Of a stretch of 64,000 nt of DNA, positions 16,260-48,833 are shown in pieces (position 1 is the stretch's first letter; every line of letters begins with the position of its first letter). Origin of the DNA: an uncultured cyanobacterium (lineage in GTDB: Bacteria > Cyanobacteriota > Cyanobacteriia > Cyanobacteriales > CAWCAG01). The position numbers were made by a program, and so were the translations under genes. The stretch covers positions 960,001-1,024,000 of the forward strand of contig CAWCAG010000007.1 in the NCBI GenBank assembly GCA_963793425.1, in the 5' to 3' direction. The notes below the pieces were generated by a model, which was not told where the DNA came from, did not search any database, and saw nothing but the letters and a program-made list of their open reading frames with translations.

Positions 16260-18196
16260 ATGCGCTTTCTGGGCAAAGTTTTAATAGTAGCTTTAGTGAT
16301 AATTATGGCAACCTCCGCTTTAAGTAACGAGATTTTGCCAGAAGAAAACTTAATTGTGGAAGGGATTCCTCCAATTCCTGCCTCTATAGTAAAAACTGTA
16401 GAACGCTATACAGATTTTCGTTCCGCCGTCCTTGCCAGTTGGCATCCTCACCGGAAAGAAATGCTTATTTCGACGCGGTTTGGAGAAACATCTCAAGTAC
16501 ACCAGGTCAAGTCTCCTTTAGGTTATCGTCAACAGTTAACTTTTTTCCCAGAAAGAGTTTCTGGGCCAGCTATCAACCGACAGAAGGTAAATATTTTGTC
16601 TTTAGTAAGGATGCTGGAGGCAATGAGTTTCGCCAGAACTATCGCTATGATTTAGGGACAGGAGAAATCACTTTACTAACAGATGGAGAATCTCGTAATA
16701 GCGCAGGAGTTTGGTCTAATGCTGGTGACTTAATGACCTACAATTCTACTCGTCGCAATGGTACAGACGTAGACCTTTACGTTATCGATCCTGCTAATCC
16801 TGATAGCGATCGCTTGGTAGCAGAAGTTGAAGGAGGGGGTTGGTTTCCCTTAACTTGGTCGCCCAATGACCAGCAAATTTTGAGTGTTGAGTATATTTCT
16901 GTTAACGAAAGTTATCTTTGGCTTTTTGATACTCAATCAGGAGAAAAGACTCTAATTACTCCTCAAGAAGAAGAGAAAGTTTTTTACGGTAGTGCCGTTT
17001 TTAGCAAAGATGGCAAGGGTTTATATGTTGTCACGGATAAAGATTCTGAATTTTCTCGTCTGGCTTATTTAGACTTAGATACCAAAGAACATACCTTCCT
17101 TAGCCAAGGGATTGACTGGGATGTGGAAGATATGGCTCTTTCTGAAGATGGTAACCTGCTGGCTTTTATCACCAACGAAGACGGCAGCAGCGTTCTCCAT
17201 CTCCTTGATACCACCACACAACAAAAACTCCCTTTACCAGAACTTCCCGTCGGACAAATTTATTCCCTTAACTGGCATAAAAATAATCAGTATTTAGGCT
17301 TTACCCTATATTCGGCTCAATCTACTGCTGATGCCTATGCTTTGGATGTAAACACCCAAAAACTTACTCGTTGGACAAAAAGCGAAACAGGAACCCTGAA
17401 TATAGACAATTTTCCTCAAGCAGAATTAGTACGTTGGTCAAGTTTTGATCAAAAAACAATTTCTGGTTTCCTTTATCGTCCCCCAACTAAGTTTACAGGT
17501 AAGCGTCCTGTAATTATTGATATTCATGGTGGGCCAGAAGGACAGTACCAACCAGGATTTTTAGGCAGACAAAATTACTATCTCAACGAATTGGGAGTAG
17601 CGATAATTTTTCCTAATGTCAGGGGTTCTTCTGGTTATGGTAAAACTTTCTTGAAATTAGATAATGGCTTCCTGCGAGAAGATTCTGTTAAAGACATTGG
17701 CGCGTTACTAAATTGGATCGCCAACCAACCAGACTTAGATAGCGACAGAATACTGGTTTCAGGGGGCAGCTATGGGGGTTATATGTCCCTAGCTGTAGCC
17801 ACTAAATATAGCGATCGCATCAGAGCAGCTATTGATATAGTAGGCATATCTAACTTCGTGAGTTTTTTAGAAAGGACAGAAAGTTATCGCCGGGATTTAC
17901 GTCGGGTAGAATATGGCGATGAACGCGACCCTCAAATGCGCCAGTTTCTCTTAGATATTTCTCCTATTAACAATGCCGACAAGATTAAAAAACCTCTCTT
18001 CGTAGTACATGGGCAAAATGATCCTCGTGTTCCTGTTTATGAGACTCAGCAAATTGCCAAGACAGTCAAGGATAATGATGTACCGGTTTGGTATTTAGTA
18101 GCTAAGGATGAAGGACACGGCTTTGCAAAGAAGAAAAACCGAGATTATTTGTTTTACGCCACTGTGATGTTTATTAAAGAGTATTTGTTGCCCTGA
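16260..18196 (+). CDS. S9 prolyl-oligopeptidase/acylaminoacyl-peptidase family protein with one frameshift near 16563
   Basis: ORFs 16260..16655 and 16439..18196 join if GGG at 16563-16565 were GGGG (...ERVSG|ASYQPTEG...). Motifs IHGGPE, GGSYGG, NDPRV and EGHGF are intact. Confidence 0.85.
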
Positions 18197-31841: not shown

Positions 31842-32887
31842 AGAAAATATTGAGTCTCAAACGCCGCCAATTTCTCAAACTTAGTTCCATGGCAGTGGGT
31901 AGTAGTATTTTAGCTGCTTGTAATCGCCAAAGTCCTTCGGAAGTAGAAAGGGCAGGAAACACCGAAAAACTAGATAAAATTGAATTTATCCTGGGTTGGA
32001 AGGCTGAGGCGGAATATGGAGGCTTTTTCCAAGCTGTGGCTACAGGTATTTATGAAGATTATGGTTTAGATGTTAACATCCAAGCCACTGCCCCCCAGAC
32101 TAATACGACTCAGCTTTTGGTCGGTGGATTGGCTGATTTTATGATGGGACATTCTGTTAATGCTTTAAAATCTATCCAACAAGGTATTCCCACTGTTACC
32201 GTAGCGGCAATTTTTCAACAAGAATTACAGGTACTCCTTGCCCATCCTGATACAGGAGTAGAATCTCTTAAGGATCTTCGGGGTAAACCAATTTATCTGA
32301 CTCCAGGGGCTAATACTACCTACTGGCCAGTGTTAAAGGAGAAATACGGCTTTGATGACAGTCAACAGCGTCCTTATAACTTTAATGTTAGTCCTTTTTT
32401 ATTAGATAAAAATGCTGCCCAACAAGGAATCTTAACTTCGGAACCCTACACTATCGAAAAAGAAGGGGGCTTTAAACCAGTTATTTTACCCTTATCAGAA
32501 GCCGGTTATAATCCCTATGCTTTTACTATTGAAACAACTCAAAAATTAGTCACCAAAAACCCCGATTTAGTGCAGCGTTTCGTGACAGCTTCTATTCAAG
32601 GTTGGTATAGCTATTTAGAAGATCCGACACCGGGCAATGAGTTAATTAAGCAAGCCAATCCAGAAATGTCCGATGATCTTCTTGCTTACGGAGTTACCAA
32701 GCTTAAAGAATATGGAATTTCCACCTCTGGGGATGCGGTTAAGCTGGGTATAGGTGCAATGAGTGACGGGCGTTGGCAAAGTTTGTTTGAGGAGTTGGTG
32801 GCTGTTGGTGTTTTGGATGACAAGACAAACTATCAGGATGCTTATACCCTAGATTTTGTGAATCAGGGAGTAGAGTTTTTTTCGTAG
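31838..32887 (+). CDS. NMT1/THI5-like ABC substrate-binding lipoprotein
   Basis: Tat-lipoprotein signal (KRRQFLK...LAAC); WKAEAEYGGF and VQRFVTASIQGW. Confidence 0.85.
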   Translation: MKKILSLKRRQFLKLSSMAVGSSILAACNRQSPSEVERAGNTEKLDKIEFILGWKAEAEYGGFFQAVATGIYEDYGLDVNIQATAPQTNTTQLLVGGLADFMMGHSVNALKSIQQGIPTVTVAAIFQQELQVLLAHPDTGVESLKDLRGKPIYLTPGANTTYWPVLKEKYGFDDSQQRPYNFNVSPFLLDKNAAQQGILTSEPYTIEKEGGFKPVILPLSEAGYNPYAFTIETTQKLVTKNPDLVQRFVTASIQGWYSYLEDPTPGNELIKQANPEMSDDLLAYGVTKLKEYGISTSGDAVKLGIGAMSDGRWQSLFEELVAVGVLDDKTNYQDAYTLDFVNQGVEFFS

Positions 32888-32892
32888 TTTTC

Positions 32893-33053
32893 GTAGGGTG
32901 TGTTAGTGCTGGCAACAATTTCGGATCAAGCAGTCAAATTTAATTCAGCACGTAACGCACCGCAAATTAATTCAAGTAGGAATTGGCGCGTTACGGCGGA
33001 TAAAGGCTTTTTGATTTAGGCACATTTATGGTATCCGCCTAACAACACCCTAC
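32893..33053 (+). repeat. REPIN-like unit 1 (two inverted GTAG-REPs)
   Basis: GTAGGGTGTGTTAG-TGCTG...CAGCA-CGTAACGCACC...GGCGCGTTACG-GCGGATA...TATCCGC-CTAACAACACCCTAC. Confidence 0.88.
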
Positions 33054-33059
33054 CGTCAA

Positions 33060-33611
33060 TTATTCACTCGCAACATTTGACAACATCATTTTACTTTCAT
33101 CTAAACCCCAGTTAGGTGGATAAATTGCTTGGCTAATAAACCGATGAATTGTAGAAAACTGCCAATCTTGCGCTGACTTACATAGACCATGCTTAACTGG
33201 GTTGTAATGGATATAATTACAGTGCAAGGCAAAATCTTGCTCATCTCGAATCAAATGTTCCCAGAAACGGCGTTGCCAGAGGTTGCTTTCTTGCCTTTTA
33301 CGACGAGAAAGAGAAATACTTCCCTCAACAGTAATAGCTTCTTTGTAATGCTTGGTAACATAAGTTTTGATTAATCGCAGTCGCCCAAAAAAGTCATGAT
33401 CGTGGGGAGGCAAGGTTAAAAGACAATGGAAATGATCCGGTAGCAAGATAAAAGCATCAAGGGAAAACGGATGCTTTGCTTTAACCTGCAAAATTCCTTC
33501 TCGAAGAGCTTTCCTACCTACATCTTTACATAGCCAGGGATTTCTTTGATGGGTAACTTGAGTAATAAAGTAAGTTCTTCCCGGTGTTTTGAGTCTTCTG
33601 TAGTTTGGCAT
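33060..33611 (-). CDS. REP-associated tyrosine transposase (RAYT, Y1 HUH family)
   Basis: MPNYRR...TYFITQVT start, LPDHFH (HUH), WQRRFWEHLIRD and YIHYNPVKHG. True start at 33611 (183 aa). Confidence 0.93.
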   Translation of the reverse strand: MPNYRRLKTPGRTYFITQVTHQRNPWLCKDVGRKALREGILQVKAKHPFSLDAFILLPDHFHCLLTLPPHDHDFFGRLRLIKTYVTKHYKEAITVEGSISLSRRKRQESNLWQRRFWEHLIRDEQDFALHCNYIHYNPVKHGLCKSAQDWQFSTIHRFISQAIYPPNWGLDESKMMLSNVASE

Positions 33612-33681
33612 TAGCTTAGAGAATTGATGCACTACTCCATCTCCGCCTGATCGTAGCATCATCGCCGCGATCGCAGAAATC

Positions 33682-33783
33682 GTAGGGTGTGTTAGTGCTG
33701 CCAACAATCTTGGGTAAATGAGTAAAATTTAATTCAGCACGTAACGCACCGCAAATTAATTTAAGCAGGAATTGGCGCGTTAC
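33682..33783 (+). repeat. REPIN-like unit 2 (3'-truncated)
   Basis: Same sequence as unit 1 up to GGCGCGTTAC. Confidence 0.88.
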
Positions 33784-33798
33784 CGTCTCCGTATTATT

Positions 33799-33960
33799 GT
33801 AGGGTGTGTTAGCGCTGGCAACAATCCTGGGTAAATGAGTAAAATTTAATTCAGCACGTAACGCACCACAAATTGATTCAAGTAGGAATTTGGTGCGTTA
33901 CGGCGGATAAAGTATTTTTATATTTAAGCACATTTAGATAGCCCGCCTAACACACCCTAC
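33799..33960 (+). repeat. REPIN-like unit 3 (complete)
   Basis: GTAGGGTGTGTTAG ... CTAACACACCCTAC, perfect 14-bp terminal inverted repeat. Confidence 0.9.
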
Positions 33961-34007
33961 CTCGGTGTTGTCAACTATAATGAGTTGAGATTTTAAATTA
34001 CTTAACC

Positions 34008-36179
34008 ATGAAAGCCAAGGAAGTTGTTGCTAAATATGCTGAGGGAGAGAGGGATTTTCGTCGGGTTGATTTGCGGGGACAATCTTTTAAAGGAGAAAAC
34101 CTCGCAGGGGCAGATTTCCGGGGGGCAGATATTCGTGGGACTAATTTTACTGGAGCAAATCTGACTGGGGTTAATTTTCAGGAAGCTAAGGCTGGTTTGC
34201 AAAGGCGTTGGATGGTTGTGCAATTGCTGTTTTCTTTAGTTTTAGCAGCTATTTCTGGCTTTTGCTCAATATTGGCAGGAGCAATGGTTACTTTCATCTT
34301 CGACAGTAGTGATTTAGAAAATCAAATAGCAGGGTGGTTAGACTTTAACAATACTAGTTATTTTTTCAATCATTACTCCTGCGTCAAGGAACTAATGTTG
34401 CTTTAGTGCAGGCGCATGTCGTAGGTGCAGTTGCGGTCGCAGGCATATTTGCATGGTAGTCATTGCGACATTCGACGGTTGCAAATGCAGGCTTAGTTGA
34501 AGTTACAGGTTTATTCGCAGACGCAGTTGCAGTCACACTTGCCATGGTAGTAGCACTTGCAGTCGAATTTACAGGCGCACTCGCAGTTGCAGCTCGCAGT
34601 TACAGTCGTAGGCGACAGTCGTAGGTGCAGTTGCTACTCGCAAGTTGCACTCGTATTTACAGGCGCAGTTGCACTTGTGATCGTACGTGCGCACTCGCAC
34701 TCGTAGTCTACAGGCGTACTCAGTAACCACACGTCGCAGTCGCAGTCACAGGCGCATTAATTATCCTTAGTGCTTACATTGGCTGGCAAACTATCAAAGG
34801 CAACGAAAAATACACCTTAATCAAAACCATAGCTGTTGCCCTAGCTGCCACCGGAGGAACTAGCTTTCGCCAAGCCAACTTAACCGAAGCAGAATTTCAC
34901 AAAGCAACCCTGAAAAACACAGACTTTCGCAAAGCAACCTTAACCCGTACCTACTTGGAAAGATAGCCTTAAACTAGACTTCGCCAGACTAGGCAACACC
35001 TACCTCAGCCATAAAGCAATCAGAGAATTAATCTTCACCAACAACGGCTATAAAAAATCCTACCAAGGTTTGAACCTCCGAGGAATTAACCTCGCCGGAG
35101 TTAACCTCGAAGCCGCAAACCTCAAACAAGCAGACTTAGCAGAAGCCAACCTCCGCCAAGCTAATTTAAAAGATGCCAACTTAACAGAAATAAACGCCGT
35201 TGCCACAGATTTCACCAACGCTACCTTAACCGGGGCTTGTTTAGAAGCTTGGAACATTGACCATACCACCAAATTAAAAGATATCGATTGCCAGTATATT
35301 TATCTCTTGGAAAAGCCCAATAATAGAGGAAATAGGGAACGTCGCCCCCATAATTCCGATGCAGTTTTTCAACCAGGAGACTTTAGCCAACTGTTTCAAG
35401 AAGTCCTCAACGTCGTACAACTACTAATCCGCGATGGTTTGAACCCCGAAGCTTTCCAACAGGCTTTCCAAAAAATTATGCAACAACATCCCGGCATTAC
35501 TCCAGACTCGATTCAAGAAATCAAAAAGAAAGGAAAGGATGTTGTTGTTACTTTAGAAGTCCCGGAAGAAACCGACAAAGGAGTTTTAGAAAAAGATTTT
35601 CATGAAGTTTACCAATTGCGGTTAGAAGTTGCTACAAAAGATGTCTTACTACAAGAAATGAGGGATGATAAAAAACAACTATTCGGACTATTAAGTGATA
35701 AAAACAAACAGCCAATCATTAACAATATTACCAATACAGCAAAGAGTAACGCTATGAACGAAAATAACCAAGATAGCCGTCAATTAAACATCGGCGATGT
35801 AGCCGGAGACTTTAAACCCATGGGTTCCGCCCTTAACGCAGGAGATGTTACTATTAGCGGTACAGTAGCCGAAACTATCAACCAACTGCCTCCTTCTCCG
35901 GATGCAGAAAAACCCGGTATTAAAGAACTTCTCAGCCAATTAGCAATAGCTATTGAAGCAGAAAATAACCTCAATGAAGAAGAAAAACAAGAAGCCCTTG
36001 AAGAGATACAAAACCTAGCCAAAGCAGGGCAAAATCCTCAAGCAGGGAATAAGAAAAAGCTGGCGAAGAAAGCGATGACGATGTTGAAAGGTATTGCTGC
36101 TGGTGTCCCGGCTGCTGCGGGTTTAGCTAAGGCAGTTAAGGAGTTGTTACCGATGATTGGTAGTATTTTTGGCTTTTAA
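34008..36179 (+). pseudogene. Pentapeptide-repeat membrane protein, frame disrupted between ~34340 and ~34956 (pseudogene or consensus artefact)
   Basis: N-terminal pentapeptides (34008..), TM helices and an Ala/Val/Gly tract. An unannotated in-family segment follows (LSAYIGWQTIKGNEKY...GGTSFRQANLTEAEF), then ORF 35070..36179 (LTGACLEAWNID, RERRP). Confidence 0.85.
34408..34756 (+). repeat. Degenerate hexamer tandem tract (GCAGTC/GCAGTT/GCAGGC/GCACTC variants)
   Basis: 6-nt periodicity encoding AV/AG/AL dipeptides, broken by many single-base insertions. Confidence 0.85.
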
Positions 36180-36352
36180 TAATAATCATAGGGAAAGGGG
36201 AACAGTAAAAGTAATAAGTAATAAGTAATAAGTCAGGACTTACGCACTCAAGCTCTGTAAACCCCTGTTCCCTGTAGCCTAACGGCAAAGCTGTTCCTCA
36301 TGAATTTGAGAACCGCTATATTGACTAATATTAATTAATCAATTATTGAAAA

Positions 36353-38743
36353 ATGGCCAACACATCCGGTAAGCGTACTGTCCTTAATACTAATCCTTAT
36401 ATCCTTCTTGATAACCAAGGGCCGACTCTGCCTCCGATGGAATTAACCGCAGCACAACATATATTGGGGAGAGATGCTAGTCGTGCGGATTTGGTTGCCC
36501 CAGAAAGTTGGCTGGTTATTTCTGGTTGCCATGCTTTGTTACGCAAAAAGGGAGAAGATTATTATATTTTTGATGGAGACGGGGAAACTCCTAGTACCAA
36601 CGGTTTGTTTATTAACCACACTCGCATCACTACTACTGATGGTTATCGCCTCGAAAATGGTACGCAAATTCAAATTGGTCAAGACCCCAAAAACTGGATA
36701 TTCTTACATTTTTACGATCCGAATAGTCCTAAAGCAGCTAACCCGCCCAACCAAAGTTCCCTTGCTTTAAAGAGTCGTTCCGTGGTTTTGGGCAGAGATC
36801 CTGATGCTAACTTACAGTTGGATGCACCCACGGTTTCTCGCCGTCATGCTGTTGTTGATGGTAATGGCCGAGGGCGTTATCTTATCAAAGACTATAGTAC
36901 TAACGGAGTTTTTGTCAACGGGCAAAAAGTGAAGGGTTCAGCACAACTTTCTCCCGGCGCAACTATCCGTATTGGCCCCTATAGTTTGGTGCTGAAAGAA
37001 GATGAGTTATTGCTTACGGATAAAGGGGATCGCATTCGCTTAGATGCCTATCATGTGATACGAGAAGTTAGGGATAAACAAGGACAAGTACGCCAGCTTT
37101 TGGCTAATATTTCCCTTCCTATTGAACCAGGACAGTTTGTGGCGTTAGTAGGGGGTAGTGGGGCAGGAAAATCTACTTTGATGCGGACTCTTTTGGGAGT
37201 TGACCCCACCACTAAAGGCAGAGTTTACCTAAATGGGGAAGATTTGCGAGATAACTTTAATATTTATCGCAGTCAAATTGGTTATGTTCCCCAAGATGAT
37301 ATTGTCCACCGTCAACTTAAGGTAGAAGAAGTTCTTAGCTATGCGGCGCAATTACGTCTGCCTCCTGATACTGATGTGCAAGAAGTTGTGGAGAAGACTT
37401 TGCAGCAAATTGAAATGTCCCATCGCCGGGATGTTTTGGTGAGTCAGTTAAGTGGAGGGCAAAGGAAGCGAGTTAGTATTGGGGTGGAACTTCTTGCCGA
37501 TCCGAAACTCTTTTTCTTAGATGAACCTACCTCTGGTTTAGATCCGGGGTTGGATAAAAAGATGATGCAATTGTTACGCAAGCTTGCGGATCAAGGCAGA
37601 ACAATTATCCTCGTCACCCATGCTACTACGAATATAACTTTATGCGATCGCCTTGTCTTTTTGGGTCAAGGAGGAAAACTTTGTTATTATGGCCCTCCCC
37701 AGGAAGCAACTAAGTTTTTTAGTGTTGATAGTGATGATTTTGCTGAGATTTATAACCGCTTAGAAAATCCTCAAAATGTGATTAAGGAAGCTAGTAAGTT
37801 TCGTCGTTCCAACTATCACCAAAACTATATTTCTAAACGCCTTACTAAAGAAAGTCAGGTGACAAAAGGAAGTCCACCGAAAAAAGCTCGTTCTTCTAGC
37901 TTAAAGCAATTAATTTTGTTAACGAAACGCTATTTTAAATTAATCAGCCGCGATCGCATTAATTTAGGTTTAGCTTTATTAACTGCACCTATCGGTATTA
38001 GTTTAATTACCTTAGCAATTCAAGATAAAAACCCTTTAGTTTTAGGTACAGAAGATGACCCCAGCCTCGCACCTTTAGCACTGCGTGTTCTCTTCGTTTT
38101 CACCTGTGCAGCCATGTGGGTAGGATTATCCACTTCTTTACAAGAAGTTGTTAAAGAAGCAGCTATTTATGCCAGAGAAAGATTAGTTAACTTGGCTTTA
38201 TTAGCCTATTTTGGTTCTAAAACTTTAATTTTGGGGGGAGTGGCTGCCCTACAAACTTTATTAATAACCATAGTTATTCTGATTGGTTTCCAGTCACCAG
38301 ATCCAGAATTTATTGCTTGGCCACTTGGTTTAGCTATCACCACTTTCTTAACTCTATTTACCTGTATTAGTTTAGGGTTAATGGTTTCTACTACGGTAAA
38401 AAACAGTTCTCAAGCTAACAATGCCCTGCCCCTACTTTTGTTACCGCAAATCATCTTCTCTGGGGTACTTTTCAAGATGACAGGTATTGGTAGTAAAATA
38501 TCTTGGTTAATGCTAAGTCGTTGGTCTGTGGGGGCTTACGGAAGTTTAGTTGACGTTAATGCTATGGTTCCCGAAGCGACAAAACTTCCTGATGGTAGCT
38601 TTATTACACCCCCTTTTGAACCGACGACAGTTTATGATCCAAGTTGGGAAAATCTCGCTTTAAATTGGTTTATTCTGATCTTACACGCAGGTTTTTATTT
38701 AACAGTTGCTTGGTGGGTACAAAAAAATAAGGATGTTTTTTAA
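36353..38743 (+). CDS. FHA-FHA-ABC transporter ATPase/permease fusion
   Basis: Two FHA domains (LGRD, STNG); GGSGAGKST, LSGGQ and FLDEPTSGLD; ABC-2 membrane domain. Confidence 0.93.
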   Translation: MANTSGKRTVLNTNPYILLDNQGPTLPPMELTAAQHILGRDASRADLVAPESWLVISGCHALLRKKGEDYYIFDGDGETPSTNGLFINHTRITTTDGYRLENGTQIQIGQDPKNWIFLHFYDPNSPKAANPPNQSSLALKSRSVVLGRDPDANLQLDAPTVSRRHAVVDGNGRGRYLIKDYSTNGVFVNGQKVKGSAQLSPGATIRIGPYSLVLKEDELLLTDKGDRIRLDAYHVIREVRDKQGQVRQLLANISLPIEPGQFVALVGGSGAGKSTLMRTLLGVDPTTKGRVYLNGEDLRDNFNIYRSQIGYVPQDDIVHRQLKVEEVLSYAAQLRLPPDTDVQEVVEKTLQQIEMSHRRDVLVSQLSGGQRKRVSIGVELLADPKLFFLDEPTSGLDPGLDKKMMQLLRKLADQGRTIILVTHATTNITLCDRLVFLGQGGKLCYYGPPQEATKFFSVDSDDFAEIYNRLENPQNVIKEASKFRRSNYHQNYISKRLTKESQVTKGSPPKKARSSSLKQLILLTKRYFKLISRDRINLGLALLTAPIGISLITLAIQDKNPLVLGTEDDPSLAPLALRVLFVFTCAAMWVGLSTSLQEVVKEAAIYARERLVNLALLAYFGSKTLILGGVAALQTLLITIVILIGFQSPDPEFIAWPLGLAITTFLTLFTCISLGLMVSTTVKNSSQANNALPLLLLPQIIFSGVLFKMTGIGSKISWLMLSRWSVGAYGSLVDVNAMVPEATKLPDGSFITPPFEPTTVYDPSWENLALNWFILILHAGFYLTVAWWVQKNKDVF

Positions 38744-48325: not shown

Positions 48326-48833
48326 ATGAATATTGATGATATCAAGAGTCTCTACTACATTACCCATATAAAAAACTTACCGTCTATACTTGAAGATGGC
48401 ATTTTATCCCACGGAAAAGTTGATGAGTTAAATGTTTCTTACCGCAACCAAGCCTTATCTCTACAAAAGGGAAGCATCTTTAGATGAAGAATTAGCAGAT
48501 TTAACTCTGCCTTTAAAAACTCCCAACGCCGTGAAATGGTTTCTGCTATTTGCTACTAAAAGGAAGTGGCGAGAAAACTCTCGTCGAGATGATATTGAAG
48601 CTGGTTTGAATTGGATTAGAAGTAGTTATCAAGAAGTAGGAATAAAATCTTTAGCGATGCCTGCTTTAGGTTGCGGTTTCGGCAACTTAAACTGGGCTGA
48701 TATCGGCCCATTGATGTGTCGTTACTTACACAATATTGAGATTCCCGTTGCTATTTATCTCCCCCAAGAACAGAAAATTGCTTTTGAATACCAAACAGAA
48801 AACTATTTGTTACAACGAAATCAGGTTTCCTAG
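48326..48833 (+). pseudogene. Internally deleted DarT (DUF4433)-macrodomain (DarG-like) gene
   Basis: ATG 48326 gives MNIDDIKSLYYITHIKNLPSILEDGILSH (DarT N-terminus). After ~48440 another frame gives a macrodomain C-terminal half (LLFATKRKWRENS, SLAMPALGCGFGNLNW). Confidence 0.8.

What the first reader, a model, noticed from the sequence alone, without database searches (positions are those of the whole stretch)
34340..34956. Scrambled hexamer tract in a pentapeptide-repeat membrane protein: candidate hypervariable locus
Seen: ~350 nt of degenerate 6-mers encoding Ala/Val/Gly/Thr/Leu, with well over ten single-base insertions, most not in homopolymers. Only three isolated slips were noticed in the rest of the 64 kb. 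The block AGGCGCAGTCGTAGGTGCAGTTGC occurs twice (near 34410 and 34610), each with one extra base at a different place. Both flanks remain stop-free over hundreds of codons. Inference: not ordinary decay. It looks like a consensus over reads that disagree here, meaning the hydrophobic segment varies within the population (or among collapsed paralogues), with no reverse transcriptase or template repeat in the window.
Basis: partly seen in the sequence, partly recalled or inferred. Interest (0 to 1): 0.78.

Follow-up and report, generated by a model that had tools for sequence, protein, structure and literature searches.

The report
Assembly-error patch in variable membrane gene
The scrambled stretch is most likely a patch of consensus errors in a long-read metagenome assembly, sitting on a membrane-protein segment that truly differs between co-occurring strains, so it is not a broken gene or a diversification machine.

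Summary
Gene 34008-36179 (+) encodes a pentapeptide-repeat membrane protein. Against an intact, near-identical allele (P0001, 716 aa), the window carries 16 single extra letters, three extra codons and one missing letter. All but one lie in 34340-34735, and none is in a homopolymer of 3 or more.

Short-read contigs from 4 of 4 public sediment-metagenome runs match the flanks exactly. Across the gene they carry a version without these extra letters: 1013 against 1037 letters, with 26 gap letters. Where I could rebuild it, that version reads in frame and equals P0001. The same runs and other assemblies hold further divergent versions.

Three unrelated TPR repeat genes in the same assembly show the same single-letter, mostly-insertion scrambling. 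The genome has no second copy of the tract, and no reverse transcriptase lies on the window's contig.

Verdict: a consensus or polishing artefact at a locus that is really polymorphic and low in complexity (about 0.78). A real local pseudogene comes second (about 0.12). Interest is low.

The parts
34008..36179 (+). Gene for a pentapeptide-repeat (PRP) membrane protein, about 715 aa when intact, broken into pieces as assembled
   Evidence: ORFs and three-frame translation. Frameshift-aware alignment to the intact allele P0001 matches 714 codons. Pfam PF00805/PF13599/PF13576 hit P0001 and are precomputed for the window's own 132-aa ORF P0128.
34008..34340 (+). In-frame N-terminal part: PRP beta-helix, first membrane helix, and the IFDSS..LENQIAGW motif
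   Evidence: Frame 0 is open. There are 8 amino-acid differences from P0001. Several are residues that other family members also carry, e.g. LENQIAGW in P0002/P0005/P0008, so these look like real allelic differences.
34340..34735 (+). Scrambled hydrophobic low-complexity tract: 15 of the 16 single extra letters, 3 extra codons, 1 missing letter, 17 amino-acid mismatches
   Evidence: for positions and for contexts; the letters at 34340, 34376, 34418, 34454 and 34459-60 are 'left out' in the contigs of every run that covers them.
34410..34434 (+). First copy of the 24-letter block, with one inserted letter
   Evidence: Fuzzy match allowing one insertion.
34610..34634 (+). Second copy of the 24-letter block, with one inserted letter at another place
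   Evidence: Fuzzy match allowing one insertion.
34736..34954 (+). Post-tract segment read in frame 2 (..VTGALIILSAYIGWQTIKGNEKY..AATGGTSF..), identical in protein to P0001
34955..34955 (+). Last single extra letter (approximate place), which returns the gene to frame 0 (..TRTY/WKDSLKLD..)
34956..36179 (+). C-terminal part in frame 0: second PRP beta-helix, a small alpha/beta domain, a long helix, a disordered linker and a helical end
   Evidence: Only 2 amino-acid mismatches to P0001. AlphaFold2 model of P0001. Foldseek matches only PRP beta-helices.

Best explanation
The frameshifts are not in the organism. The gene is an ordinary, intact pentapeptide-repeat membrane protein. Its middle is a hydrophobic, low-complexity segment of Ala/Val/Gly/Thr/Phe/Leu that evolves fast and differs between co-occurring strains. 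The assembly has 9 contigs up to 2.2 Mb from a sediment community, so it was almost certainly built from long reads. I infer that reads from non-identical versions of this segment were piled together, or that the draft was never corrected here because accurate reads of a different version would not map. What remains is a consensus with about 25 spurious inserted letters, one lost letter, and a mix of real and spurious substitutions.

Shown: the extra letters are absent from accurate contigs of the same population, other versions exist, and the same signature occurs in other repeat genes of this assembly.

Inferred: the sequencing technology and which pipeline step failed.
For: 1., Logan contigs of 4 of 4 runs from one study. 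The flanks are identical to the window: X2 record 8 spans 32000-33715 with 0 differences, and X1 records 1-2 show 0 differences. Across 34100-35136, X1 record 4 has 1013 letters against the window's 1037, with 51 other letters and 26 gap letters. The window letters at 34340, 34376 and 34418 are left out in all 4 runs. Those at 34454 and 34459-60 are left out in the 2 runs that cover them.

2.. The alignment to P0001 independently gives 16+9+1 = 26 gap letters and a net +24, the same numbers as.

3.. I applied the 10 substitutions and 3 deletions that one search lists for 34270-34453, plus one unknown letter. This gives an open frame whose residues 79-148 equal P0001, apart from the unknown one.

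4. The damage is local. 25 inserted letters against 1 lost, none of the 16 single ones in a homopolymer of 3 or more. The C-terminal ~410 codons have no shift and only 2 amino-acid differences.

5. The same assembly has three other scrambled patches, all tandem TPR repeat genes:
- C5:2082747-2083619: 10 single-letter insertions, 0 deletions.
- C9 about 1051.0-1052.1 kb: 11 insertions, 3 deletions.
- C1:127804-129009: 11 insertion and 10 deletion events.

6. The locus is polymorphic, which is the precondition for a mashed consensus:
- The window's N-terminal part, P0001 and P0132 differ from one another.
- P0132's contig ends exactly at the start of the tract.
- An X1 contig has 662 other letters between matching flanks.

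7. Published context: small indels that break frames are a known weakness of long-read (meta)genome consensus (passages of PMC9262707; abstract start of preprint 10.1101/2021.08.23.457338).
Against: - The runs laid may not be the assembly's own reads, and no contig there carries the window's exact version. The window also differs from all four runs at 10 places in 35519-38000. The clean frame is therefore shown for the nearest version, not for the window's own strain.
- Known nanopore consensus errors sit mostly in homopolymers (PMC9262707 passages). These do not.
- Repeats alone do not explain it. Of 32 tandem-repeat regions found genome-wide, 14 with a period divisible by 3 are at least 90% open in one frame, and only the three TPR arrays are scrambled.
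- My more specific idea was that each extra letter and its neighbour are two variants kept side by side. It fits several tract sites by eye. A test on the TPR patches gave only 15 of 30 against 11 expected by chance, so that detail is unsupported.
- Only 23 of the 51 substitutions and 6 of the 26 gap letters of X1 record 4 were visible, because the tables are cut.
Confidence: 0.78

Rival explanations
1. The strain behind the window really carries a dead copy. The tract accumulated about 25 single-letter insertions through a local mutational process, while the rest of the gene stayed intact.
For: The window's exact version is not seen in any accurate contig, so its frame cannot be checked directly. 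The window's version is a distinct allele in its in-frame N-terminal part. It carries polar or charged residues (N, E, D) in the tract where P0001 has V, G, T, as relaxed selection would allow.
Against: After a first frameshift, decay should spread over all 2.2 kb. Instead 25 of the 26 gap letters lie in about 400 letters, and the last ~410 codons have 2 amino-acid changes and no shift. Neighbouring DNA is 0-0.4% different from the population, which is far too little time for 26 indels. The 25:1 insertion bias runs against the deletion bias generally reported for bacterial pseudogenes (recalled, not from a call). None of the insertions is in a homopolymer or in repeat-unit steps. Three unrelated repeat genes in the same assembly look alike.
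Confidence: 0.12
2. Two or more paralogous copies in one genome were collapsed into one during assembly, and the consensus mixes them.
For: The consensus looks mixed, and several divergent versions exist in the same runs.
Against: The assembly has no second copy of the gene or the tract. The best non-self matches are 31 letters (E 8e-4) and 28 letters (E 0.17). In X1 the contig depths of the versions (14.1 and 8.31, plus 5.3 for a partial one) roughly add up to the flank depth (21.7-27) rather than exceeding it. Contig depths are rough, and the tool warns against reading them as copy number.
Confidence: 0.05
3. An active diversification system rewrites the tract, either a retroelement that copies a template with errors or exchange with silent donor cassettes.
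For: The tract is by far the most variable part of the protein among close homologs: mean pairwise identity 0.29 against 0.82-0.84 in the flanks, and length 77-141 aa. In the visible substitutions the window has A at 11 of 23 places.
Against: The genome has no template or donor copy of the tract. The 7 reverse-transcriptase matches lie on contigs C2, C5, C6, C8 and C9, none on the window's contig C7. Indels and non-A changes are common. The versions seen are few and discrete, and P0008 and P0009 share one tract letter for letter.
Confidence: 0.03

Closest known systems
Frameshift-causing indel errors in long-read (meta)genome consensus sequences
   Same: Single-letter indels break an otherwise conserved reading frame, while accurate short-read data lack them. 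The literature describes the problem and its reference-based repair (passages of PMC9262707; abstract start of preprint 10.1101/2021.08.23.457338 and listing of PMC8302730 on strain mixtures).
   Different: The errors here are not in homopolymers (0 of 16). They are packed at about one per 16 letters in a 400-letter patch, are almost all insertions, and sit on a strain-variable low-complexity segment. The rest of the checked 6 kb shows no such differences outside the multi-copy element at 33889-33942.
Cyanobacterial membrane pentapeptide-repeat proteins, e.g. HglK of Nostoc PCC 7120
   Same: Both are cyanobacterial proteins of about 700 aa that combine membrane-spanning helices with a PRP beta-helix. 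HglK is described as 727 aa with four predicted membrane spans and 36 repeats, biochemical role unknown (passages of review PMC8145042).
   Different: The order of parts differs. Here a short PRP domain comes first, then the membrane helices and low-complexity tract, then a second PRP domain and a helical C-terminal part. In HglK the membrane part is N-terminal and the repeats C-terminal. I made no sequence comparison with HglK. The best NCBIfam rows (Alr5209 family 87.7 bits against a cut-off of 125; HetL 74 against 260) are below their cut-offs.
Variable regions of diversity-generating retroelements
   Same: One short segment of a protein is far more variable than its flanks.
   Different: There is no template repeat, no reverse transcriptase on the contig, there are indels, and the changes are not adenine-specific.
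Phase-variable contingency loci (simple-sequence repeats that slip)
   Same: A local cluster of frame changes inside a gene for an envelope-associated protein.
   Different: There is no homopolymer or simple-sequence run at the shift sites, and the shifts are not in repeat-unit steps.

Membership tests
Pentapeptide repeat proteins (Pfam PF00805 and relatives) | Tandem five-residue repeats matching the family profile above its cut-off | tested here: met
   P0001: PF00805 102.7 bits (cut-off 20.2), PF13599 67.5 (38), PF13576 48.9 (27). The window's own 132-aa ORF (P0128) carries the same three families in the precomputed column.
Pentapeptide repeat proteins (Pfam PF00805 and relatives) | Right-handed quadrilateral beta-helix fold | tested here: met
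   In the AlphaFold2 model of P0001, residues 1-65 and about 278-420 form regular short strands with block pLDDT 90-98. Foldseek's best PDB matches are PRP solenoids: HetL 3du1, Np275/276 2j8k, MfpA, Qnr.
Long-read consensus-error patch (artefact class) | Accurate reads or contigs of the same population lack the indels | tested here: met
   the contigs of 4 of 4 runs leave out the extra letters they cover; the rebuilt stretch is in frame and equals P0001 residues 79-148. Caveat: this is the nearest version, not the window's exact one.
Long-read consensus-error patch (artefact class) | The same error signature occurs in unrelated places of the same assembly | tested here: met
   Three tandem TPR genes (on C1, C5, C9) carry 10-13 single-letter insertions each. 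However, 14 other in-frame tandem-repeat regions are intact.
Long-read consensus-error patch (artefact class) | The assembly's own reads disagree with the consensus at the inserted letters | not testable with these tools
   Only Logan contigs of four runs could be laid. No raw reads of the assembly were available.
Diversity-generating retroelement target | A template repeat closely matching the variable region elsewhere in the genome | tested here: not met
   Best non-self match of the tract is 28 letters, E 0.17. For the whole gene it is 31 letters, E 8e-4.
Diversity-generating retroelement target | A reverse transcriptase gene next to the target | tested here: not met
   7 PF00078 matches in the genome, on C2, C5, C6 (2), C8 and C9 (2), none on C7.
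Diversity-generating retroelement target | Differences confined to template adenines, with no indels | tested here: not met
   26 gap letters. In the 23 visible substitutions the window base is A in 11, and C, G or T in 12.
Simple-sequence contingency locus | Frame changes at a homopolymer or short tandem repeat, in unit steps | tested here: not met
   0 of 16 insertions lie in runs of 3 or more. Only short 2-4-copy repeats are found in the tract.
HglK family | N-terminal four membrane spans followed by a C-terminal block of about 36 repeats | not tested
   The architecture described in the review passages differs from the model here. No HglK sequence was in hand for a comparison.

The most novel reading that the evidence does not exclude
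Beneath the artefact there may be a real balanced polymorphism. Co-occurring strains of one cyanobacterial species would carry three or more strongly diverged versions of a membrane-embedded low-complexity segment, inside otherwise near-identical genes and genomes. Across the family this segment would be swapped as a module: P0008 and P0009 share N-terminus and tract but differ in the C-terminal part, while P0003 and P0008 share the C-terminal part. That pattern would suit diversifying selection on an envelope protein, for example by phages or by cell-cell recognition.
Probability: 0.2. Interest if true: 0.5.

Novelty: not a real feature. Interest (0 to 1): 0.15.

Why it matters
As a finding about biology it matters little, because the scrambled frame is most likely not in the cell. 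It has two practical uses.

First, it is a warning. This assembly, and probably others like it, contains dense patches of non-homopolymer insertion errors exactly where strains differ or genes are internally repetitive. Such patches will be called pseudogenes, split genes or 'hypervariable loci' by anyone reading the consensus alone.

Second, these patches mark loci where the population is truly heterogeneous. Here that is a fast-evolving hydrophobic segment of a widespread but uncharacterised cyanobacterial membrane pentapeptide-repeat protein. It could be looked at with phased accurate reads.

Tried and rejected

3. A search for short partial proteins from the laid runs (P0001 region 32-373, 'shorter') found none of the runs' own versions. 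It returned only the window's own ORF (P0128) and P0132.

4. My last protein search used the in-frame start of the C5 TPR gene, to look for an intact ortholog. It was swamped by generic TPR proteins, with best identity 68% among the 120 listed. It says nothing either way.

5. A scan of JGI metagenome contigs for a 36-letter exact stretch just after the tract found 0 matches.

6. The 'both variants kept side by side' error model fits several tract sites by eye. On the TPR patches, however, only 15 of 30 inserted letters are variants seen in other units, against 11 expected by chance. I dropped it as a claim.

7. My codon-score Viterbi scan for frame hopping is a crude heuristic. It saw the target patch as only 3 short segments and 2 direct switches. 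Of the eight patches ranked above the target, three are the TPR arrays. The other five (C3:39.5k, C5:702k, C7:1170k, C9:405k, C9:467k) were unclear or non-coding by eye and are not counted.

8. Foldseek on the whole P0001 model gave only PRP matches and nothing for the C-terminal domains. I did not search single domains.

9. The same-genus genome G001 and 29 other relatives have no ortholog above 52% identity in the C-terminal part, so no DNA of a close allele could be aligned.

10. In run X4, bin 34613-34813 had no cover. Nothing is read into that.

Full report
**What is there**

The window is G000:C7:960001-1024000, from a 5.28-Mb assembly in 9 contigs. At 34008 a gene starts in frame 0 and is open for 132 codons. 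The three forward frames then take turns through about 34340-34760. A frame-2 stretch runs to about 34956, and the gene finishes in frame 0 at 36179.

Intact relatives elsewhere (L004 685 aa, L005 715 aa, L006 712 aa) share one layout:
- a short pentapeptide-repeat (PRP) domain;
- a membrane helix and a conserved IFDSSxLENQIxGW motif;
- another helix;
- a hydrophobic low-complexity segment whose length and make-up differ in every protein (GAGAGA..., AIAGAFPG..., and so on);
- a conserved ..AATGGTSF.. stretch;
- a second PRP domain and a C-terminal part.

A protein search with the in-frame N-terminal 111 residues found P0001. This is a 716-aa protein that its source names 'MAG: pentapeptide repeat-containing protein, partial [Spirulinaceae cyanobacterium]', and it is 93% identical over the query.

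I aligned window 34008-36179 to P0001 with a frameshift-aware method. The result:
- 714 matched codons;
- 16 single extra letters;
- 3 extra codons;
- 1 missing letter.

That makes 26 gap letters, a net +24. All but the last (about 34955) lie in 34340-34735. None of the 16 lies in a run of three or more identical letters.

There are 27 amino-acid mismatches to P0001: 8 before the tract, 17 in it, and 2 in the last ~410 codons.

**What accurate data show**

One search found four public runs of a sediment metagenome, all from one study, holding 62-69% of the sampled words of 33000-37000. I laid their Logan contigs on 32000-38000.

- The upstream flank is identical. X2 record 8 covers 32000-33715 with 0 differences, and X1 records 1-2 also show 0.
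- Downstream, 35519-38000 shows 10 differences in 2482 letters.
- Across 34100-35136 the closest contig (X1 record 4, depth 14.1) has 1013 letters against the window's 1037, with 51 other letters and 26 gap letters.
- These numbers are the same as those from the P0001 alignment.
- The window letters at 34340, 34376 and 34418 are 'left out' in all four runs. Those at 34454 and 34459-60 are left out in the two runs that cover them.

I applied the visible differences for 34270-34453 to the window in a script. This gives an open frame whose residues 79-148 equal P0001, apart from one letter I had to leave unknown. So the nearest version present in accurate data is intact.

Limits: the tables are cut, so I saw only 23 of the 51 substitutions and 6 of the 26 gap letters. 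The contigs are not reads. No contig carries the window's own version.

**The locus really varies**

- The window's in-frame N-terminal part differs from P0001 at 8 residues. Several of these are residues that other family members also carry, for example LENQIAGW where P0001 and P0132 have LEYQIAGW. They look like true allelic differences, not noise.
- P0132 comes from another assembly that its source also names Spirulinaceae. It is a third variant, and its contig ends exactly at ..IAGW, the start of the tract.
- In X1 a 1024-letter contig (depth 8.31) matches 34100-34229 and 34915-35147 but has 662 unalignable letters in between. A like contig is in X2 (depth 8.07).
- A further X1 contig (depth 5.3) covers 34734-35136 with 46 other letters.
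- In X1 the depths 14.1 + 8.31 (+5.3) roughly equal the flank depths of 21.7-27. In X2 the fit is good for the far flanks (13-14) but not for the short contig just upstream (8.75).
- The tool warns that contig depths are rough, and that joints found below 95% likeness can come from other organisms. I therefore take 'several versions in one population' as likely, not proven.

Among seven close full-length homologs, mean pairwise identity is as follows:

| Segment | Mean pairwise identity |
|---|---|
| PRP and C-terminal parts | 0.82-0.84 |
| First and second helices | 0.56-0.61 |
| Tract | 0.29 |

Tract lengths run from 77 to 141 aa. P0008 and P0009 share N-terminus and tract but differ in the C-terminal part, which P0008 shares with P0003. 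The versions are therefore mosaics.

**Why I read the frameshifts as an artefact**

- The damage is confined to about 400 letters of a 2.2-kb gene whose neighbours are 0-0.4% different from the population. Neutral decay after a first frameshift would not stay there, and would not produce 25 insertions to 1 deletion.
- A genome-wide look for frame hopping and for tandem repeats found three other patches with the same signature. All are tandem TPR repeat genes:

| Patch | Repeat | Single-letter changes |
|---|---|---|
| C5:2082747-2083619 | 102-letter unit, 8.5 copies | 10 insertions, 0 deletions |
| C9, about 1051.0-1052.1 kb | about 120-letter unit | 11 insertions, 3 deletions |
| C1:127804-129009 | 120-letter unit, 10 copies | 11 insertion and 10 deletion events |

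- A cause shared by unrelated genes in one assembly is most simply technical.
- Against a simple 'repeats cause errors' story: of 32 tandem-repeat regions, 14 with a period divisible by three are at least 90% open in one frame. Something more, such as strain differences or failed polishing, must decide which patches go wrong. I could not test that.
- The literature describes frame-breaking indels as a standing weakness of long-read consensus, but mainly in homopolymers (passages of PMC9262707). Preprint 10.1101/2021.08.23.457338 and PMC8302730 were seen only as listing and abstract start.
- I cannot say which technology or pipeline step is at fault.

**Rivals**

- A real, locally hypermutated pseudogene cannot be excluded, because the window's exact version is not in the accurate contigs. 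I give it about 0.12.
- Collapsed paralogues are unlikely (0.05). The assembly has no second copy, and the depths add up to the flank depth rather than exceeding it.
- An active diversification system is very unlikely (0.03). There is no template or donor copy, and none of the 7 reverse-transcriptase matches is on contig C7. Indels and non-adenine changes abound, and the versions are few and discrete.

**The gene itself**

Pfam finds only pentapeptide-repeat families. NCBIfam rows are all below their cut-offs.

An AlphaFold2 model of P0001, built with 61 aligned homologs, has mean pLDDT 75. It shows:
- a confident PRP beta-helix at 1-65;
- helices at 67-99, 104-127 and 129-149;
- an unconfident low-complexity stretch at 147-227 (pLDDT below 50);
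- helices at 230-274;
- a confident second PRP beta-helix at about 278-420;
- a small alpha/beta unit and a long helix;
- a disordered linker at 550-608 and a helical end.

Foldseek matches only PRP structures. The closest described relative by kind is HglK, a membrane PRP of unknown biochemical role with a different order of parts (review passages). I made no sequence comparison with it. The function stays unknown. My inference is a membrane-anchored scaffold whose PRP helices bind partners, with the tract acting as a tolerant hydrophobic spacer free to drift.

**Verdict**

The further idea of a hypervariable or diversifying locus is not supported. The scrambled frame is not a real feature, and interest is low.

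Noticed in passing
G000:C1:127804-129009 (L016), G000:C5:2082747-2083619 (L015), G000:C9:1050991-1052119 (L017): Three tandem TPR repeat genes elsewhere in the same assembly are scrambled by single-letter indels, mostly insertions. This is the same signature as in the finding. Fourteen other in-frame tandem-repeat regions are intact.
   Followed up: partly
window 33060-33707 (-) and 33860-33960: An IS200-like Y1 transposase (Pfam Y1_Tnp, 24.8 bits against a cut-off of 23) sits upstream of the gene. Beside it is a hairpin-forming element that is multi-copy in the runs: summed contig depth 78.7 against about 27 in X1, with several contigs joining other places. This looks like a REP-type element with its transposase (the REP/RAYT label is recalled, not tested). 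P0001's contig starts just here.
   Followed up: partly
window 16260-18196 (+): An S9 prolyl-oligopeptidase-family gene is split into two overlapping ORFs (131 aa and 585 aa). The split is one frame change near 16540-16560, next to a T6/C3 run. It is probably an isolated consensus indel.
   Followed up: partly
window 48326-48833 (+): This is a remnant of a DarT/DarG-like pair. A 53-aa ORF matches only the first 35 of 201 DarT profile positions. It overlaps a 133-aa ORF that matches only the end of the Macro domain (positions 65-113 of 118).
   Followed up: partly
window 36353-38743 (+): The next gene downstream encodes two FHA domains fused to an ABC ATPase and an ABC-2 permease (796 aa). No link to the PRP gene was tested.
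   Followed up: no
window 35456-35468 and 37009-37261: There are small clusters of substitutions between the window and the contigs of the runs, several of them at full contig depth. The window's strain is therefore not the dominant one in those runs.
   Followed up: no
G000:C7:239759-242659, C8:19855-21131, C9:3-1072: Tandem Repeats Finder rows with periods of 72-74 (or 146) and about 68-71% matches look like CRISPR arrays. They were not examined.
   Followed up: no
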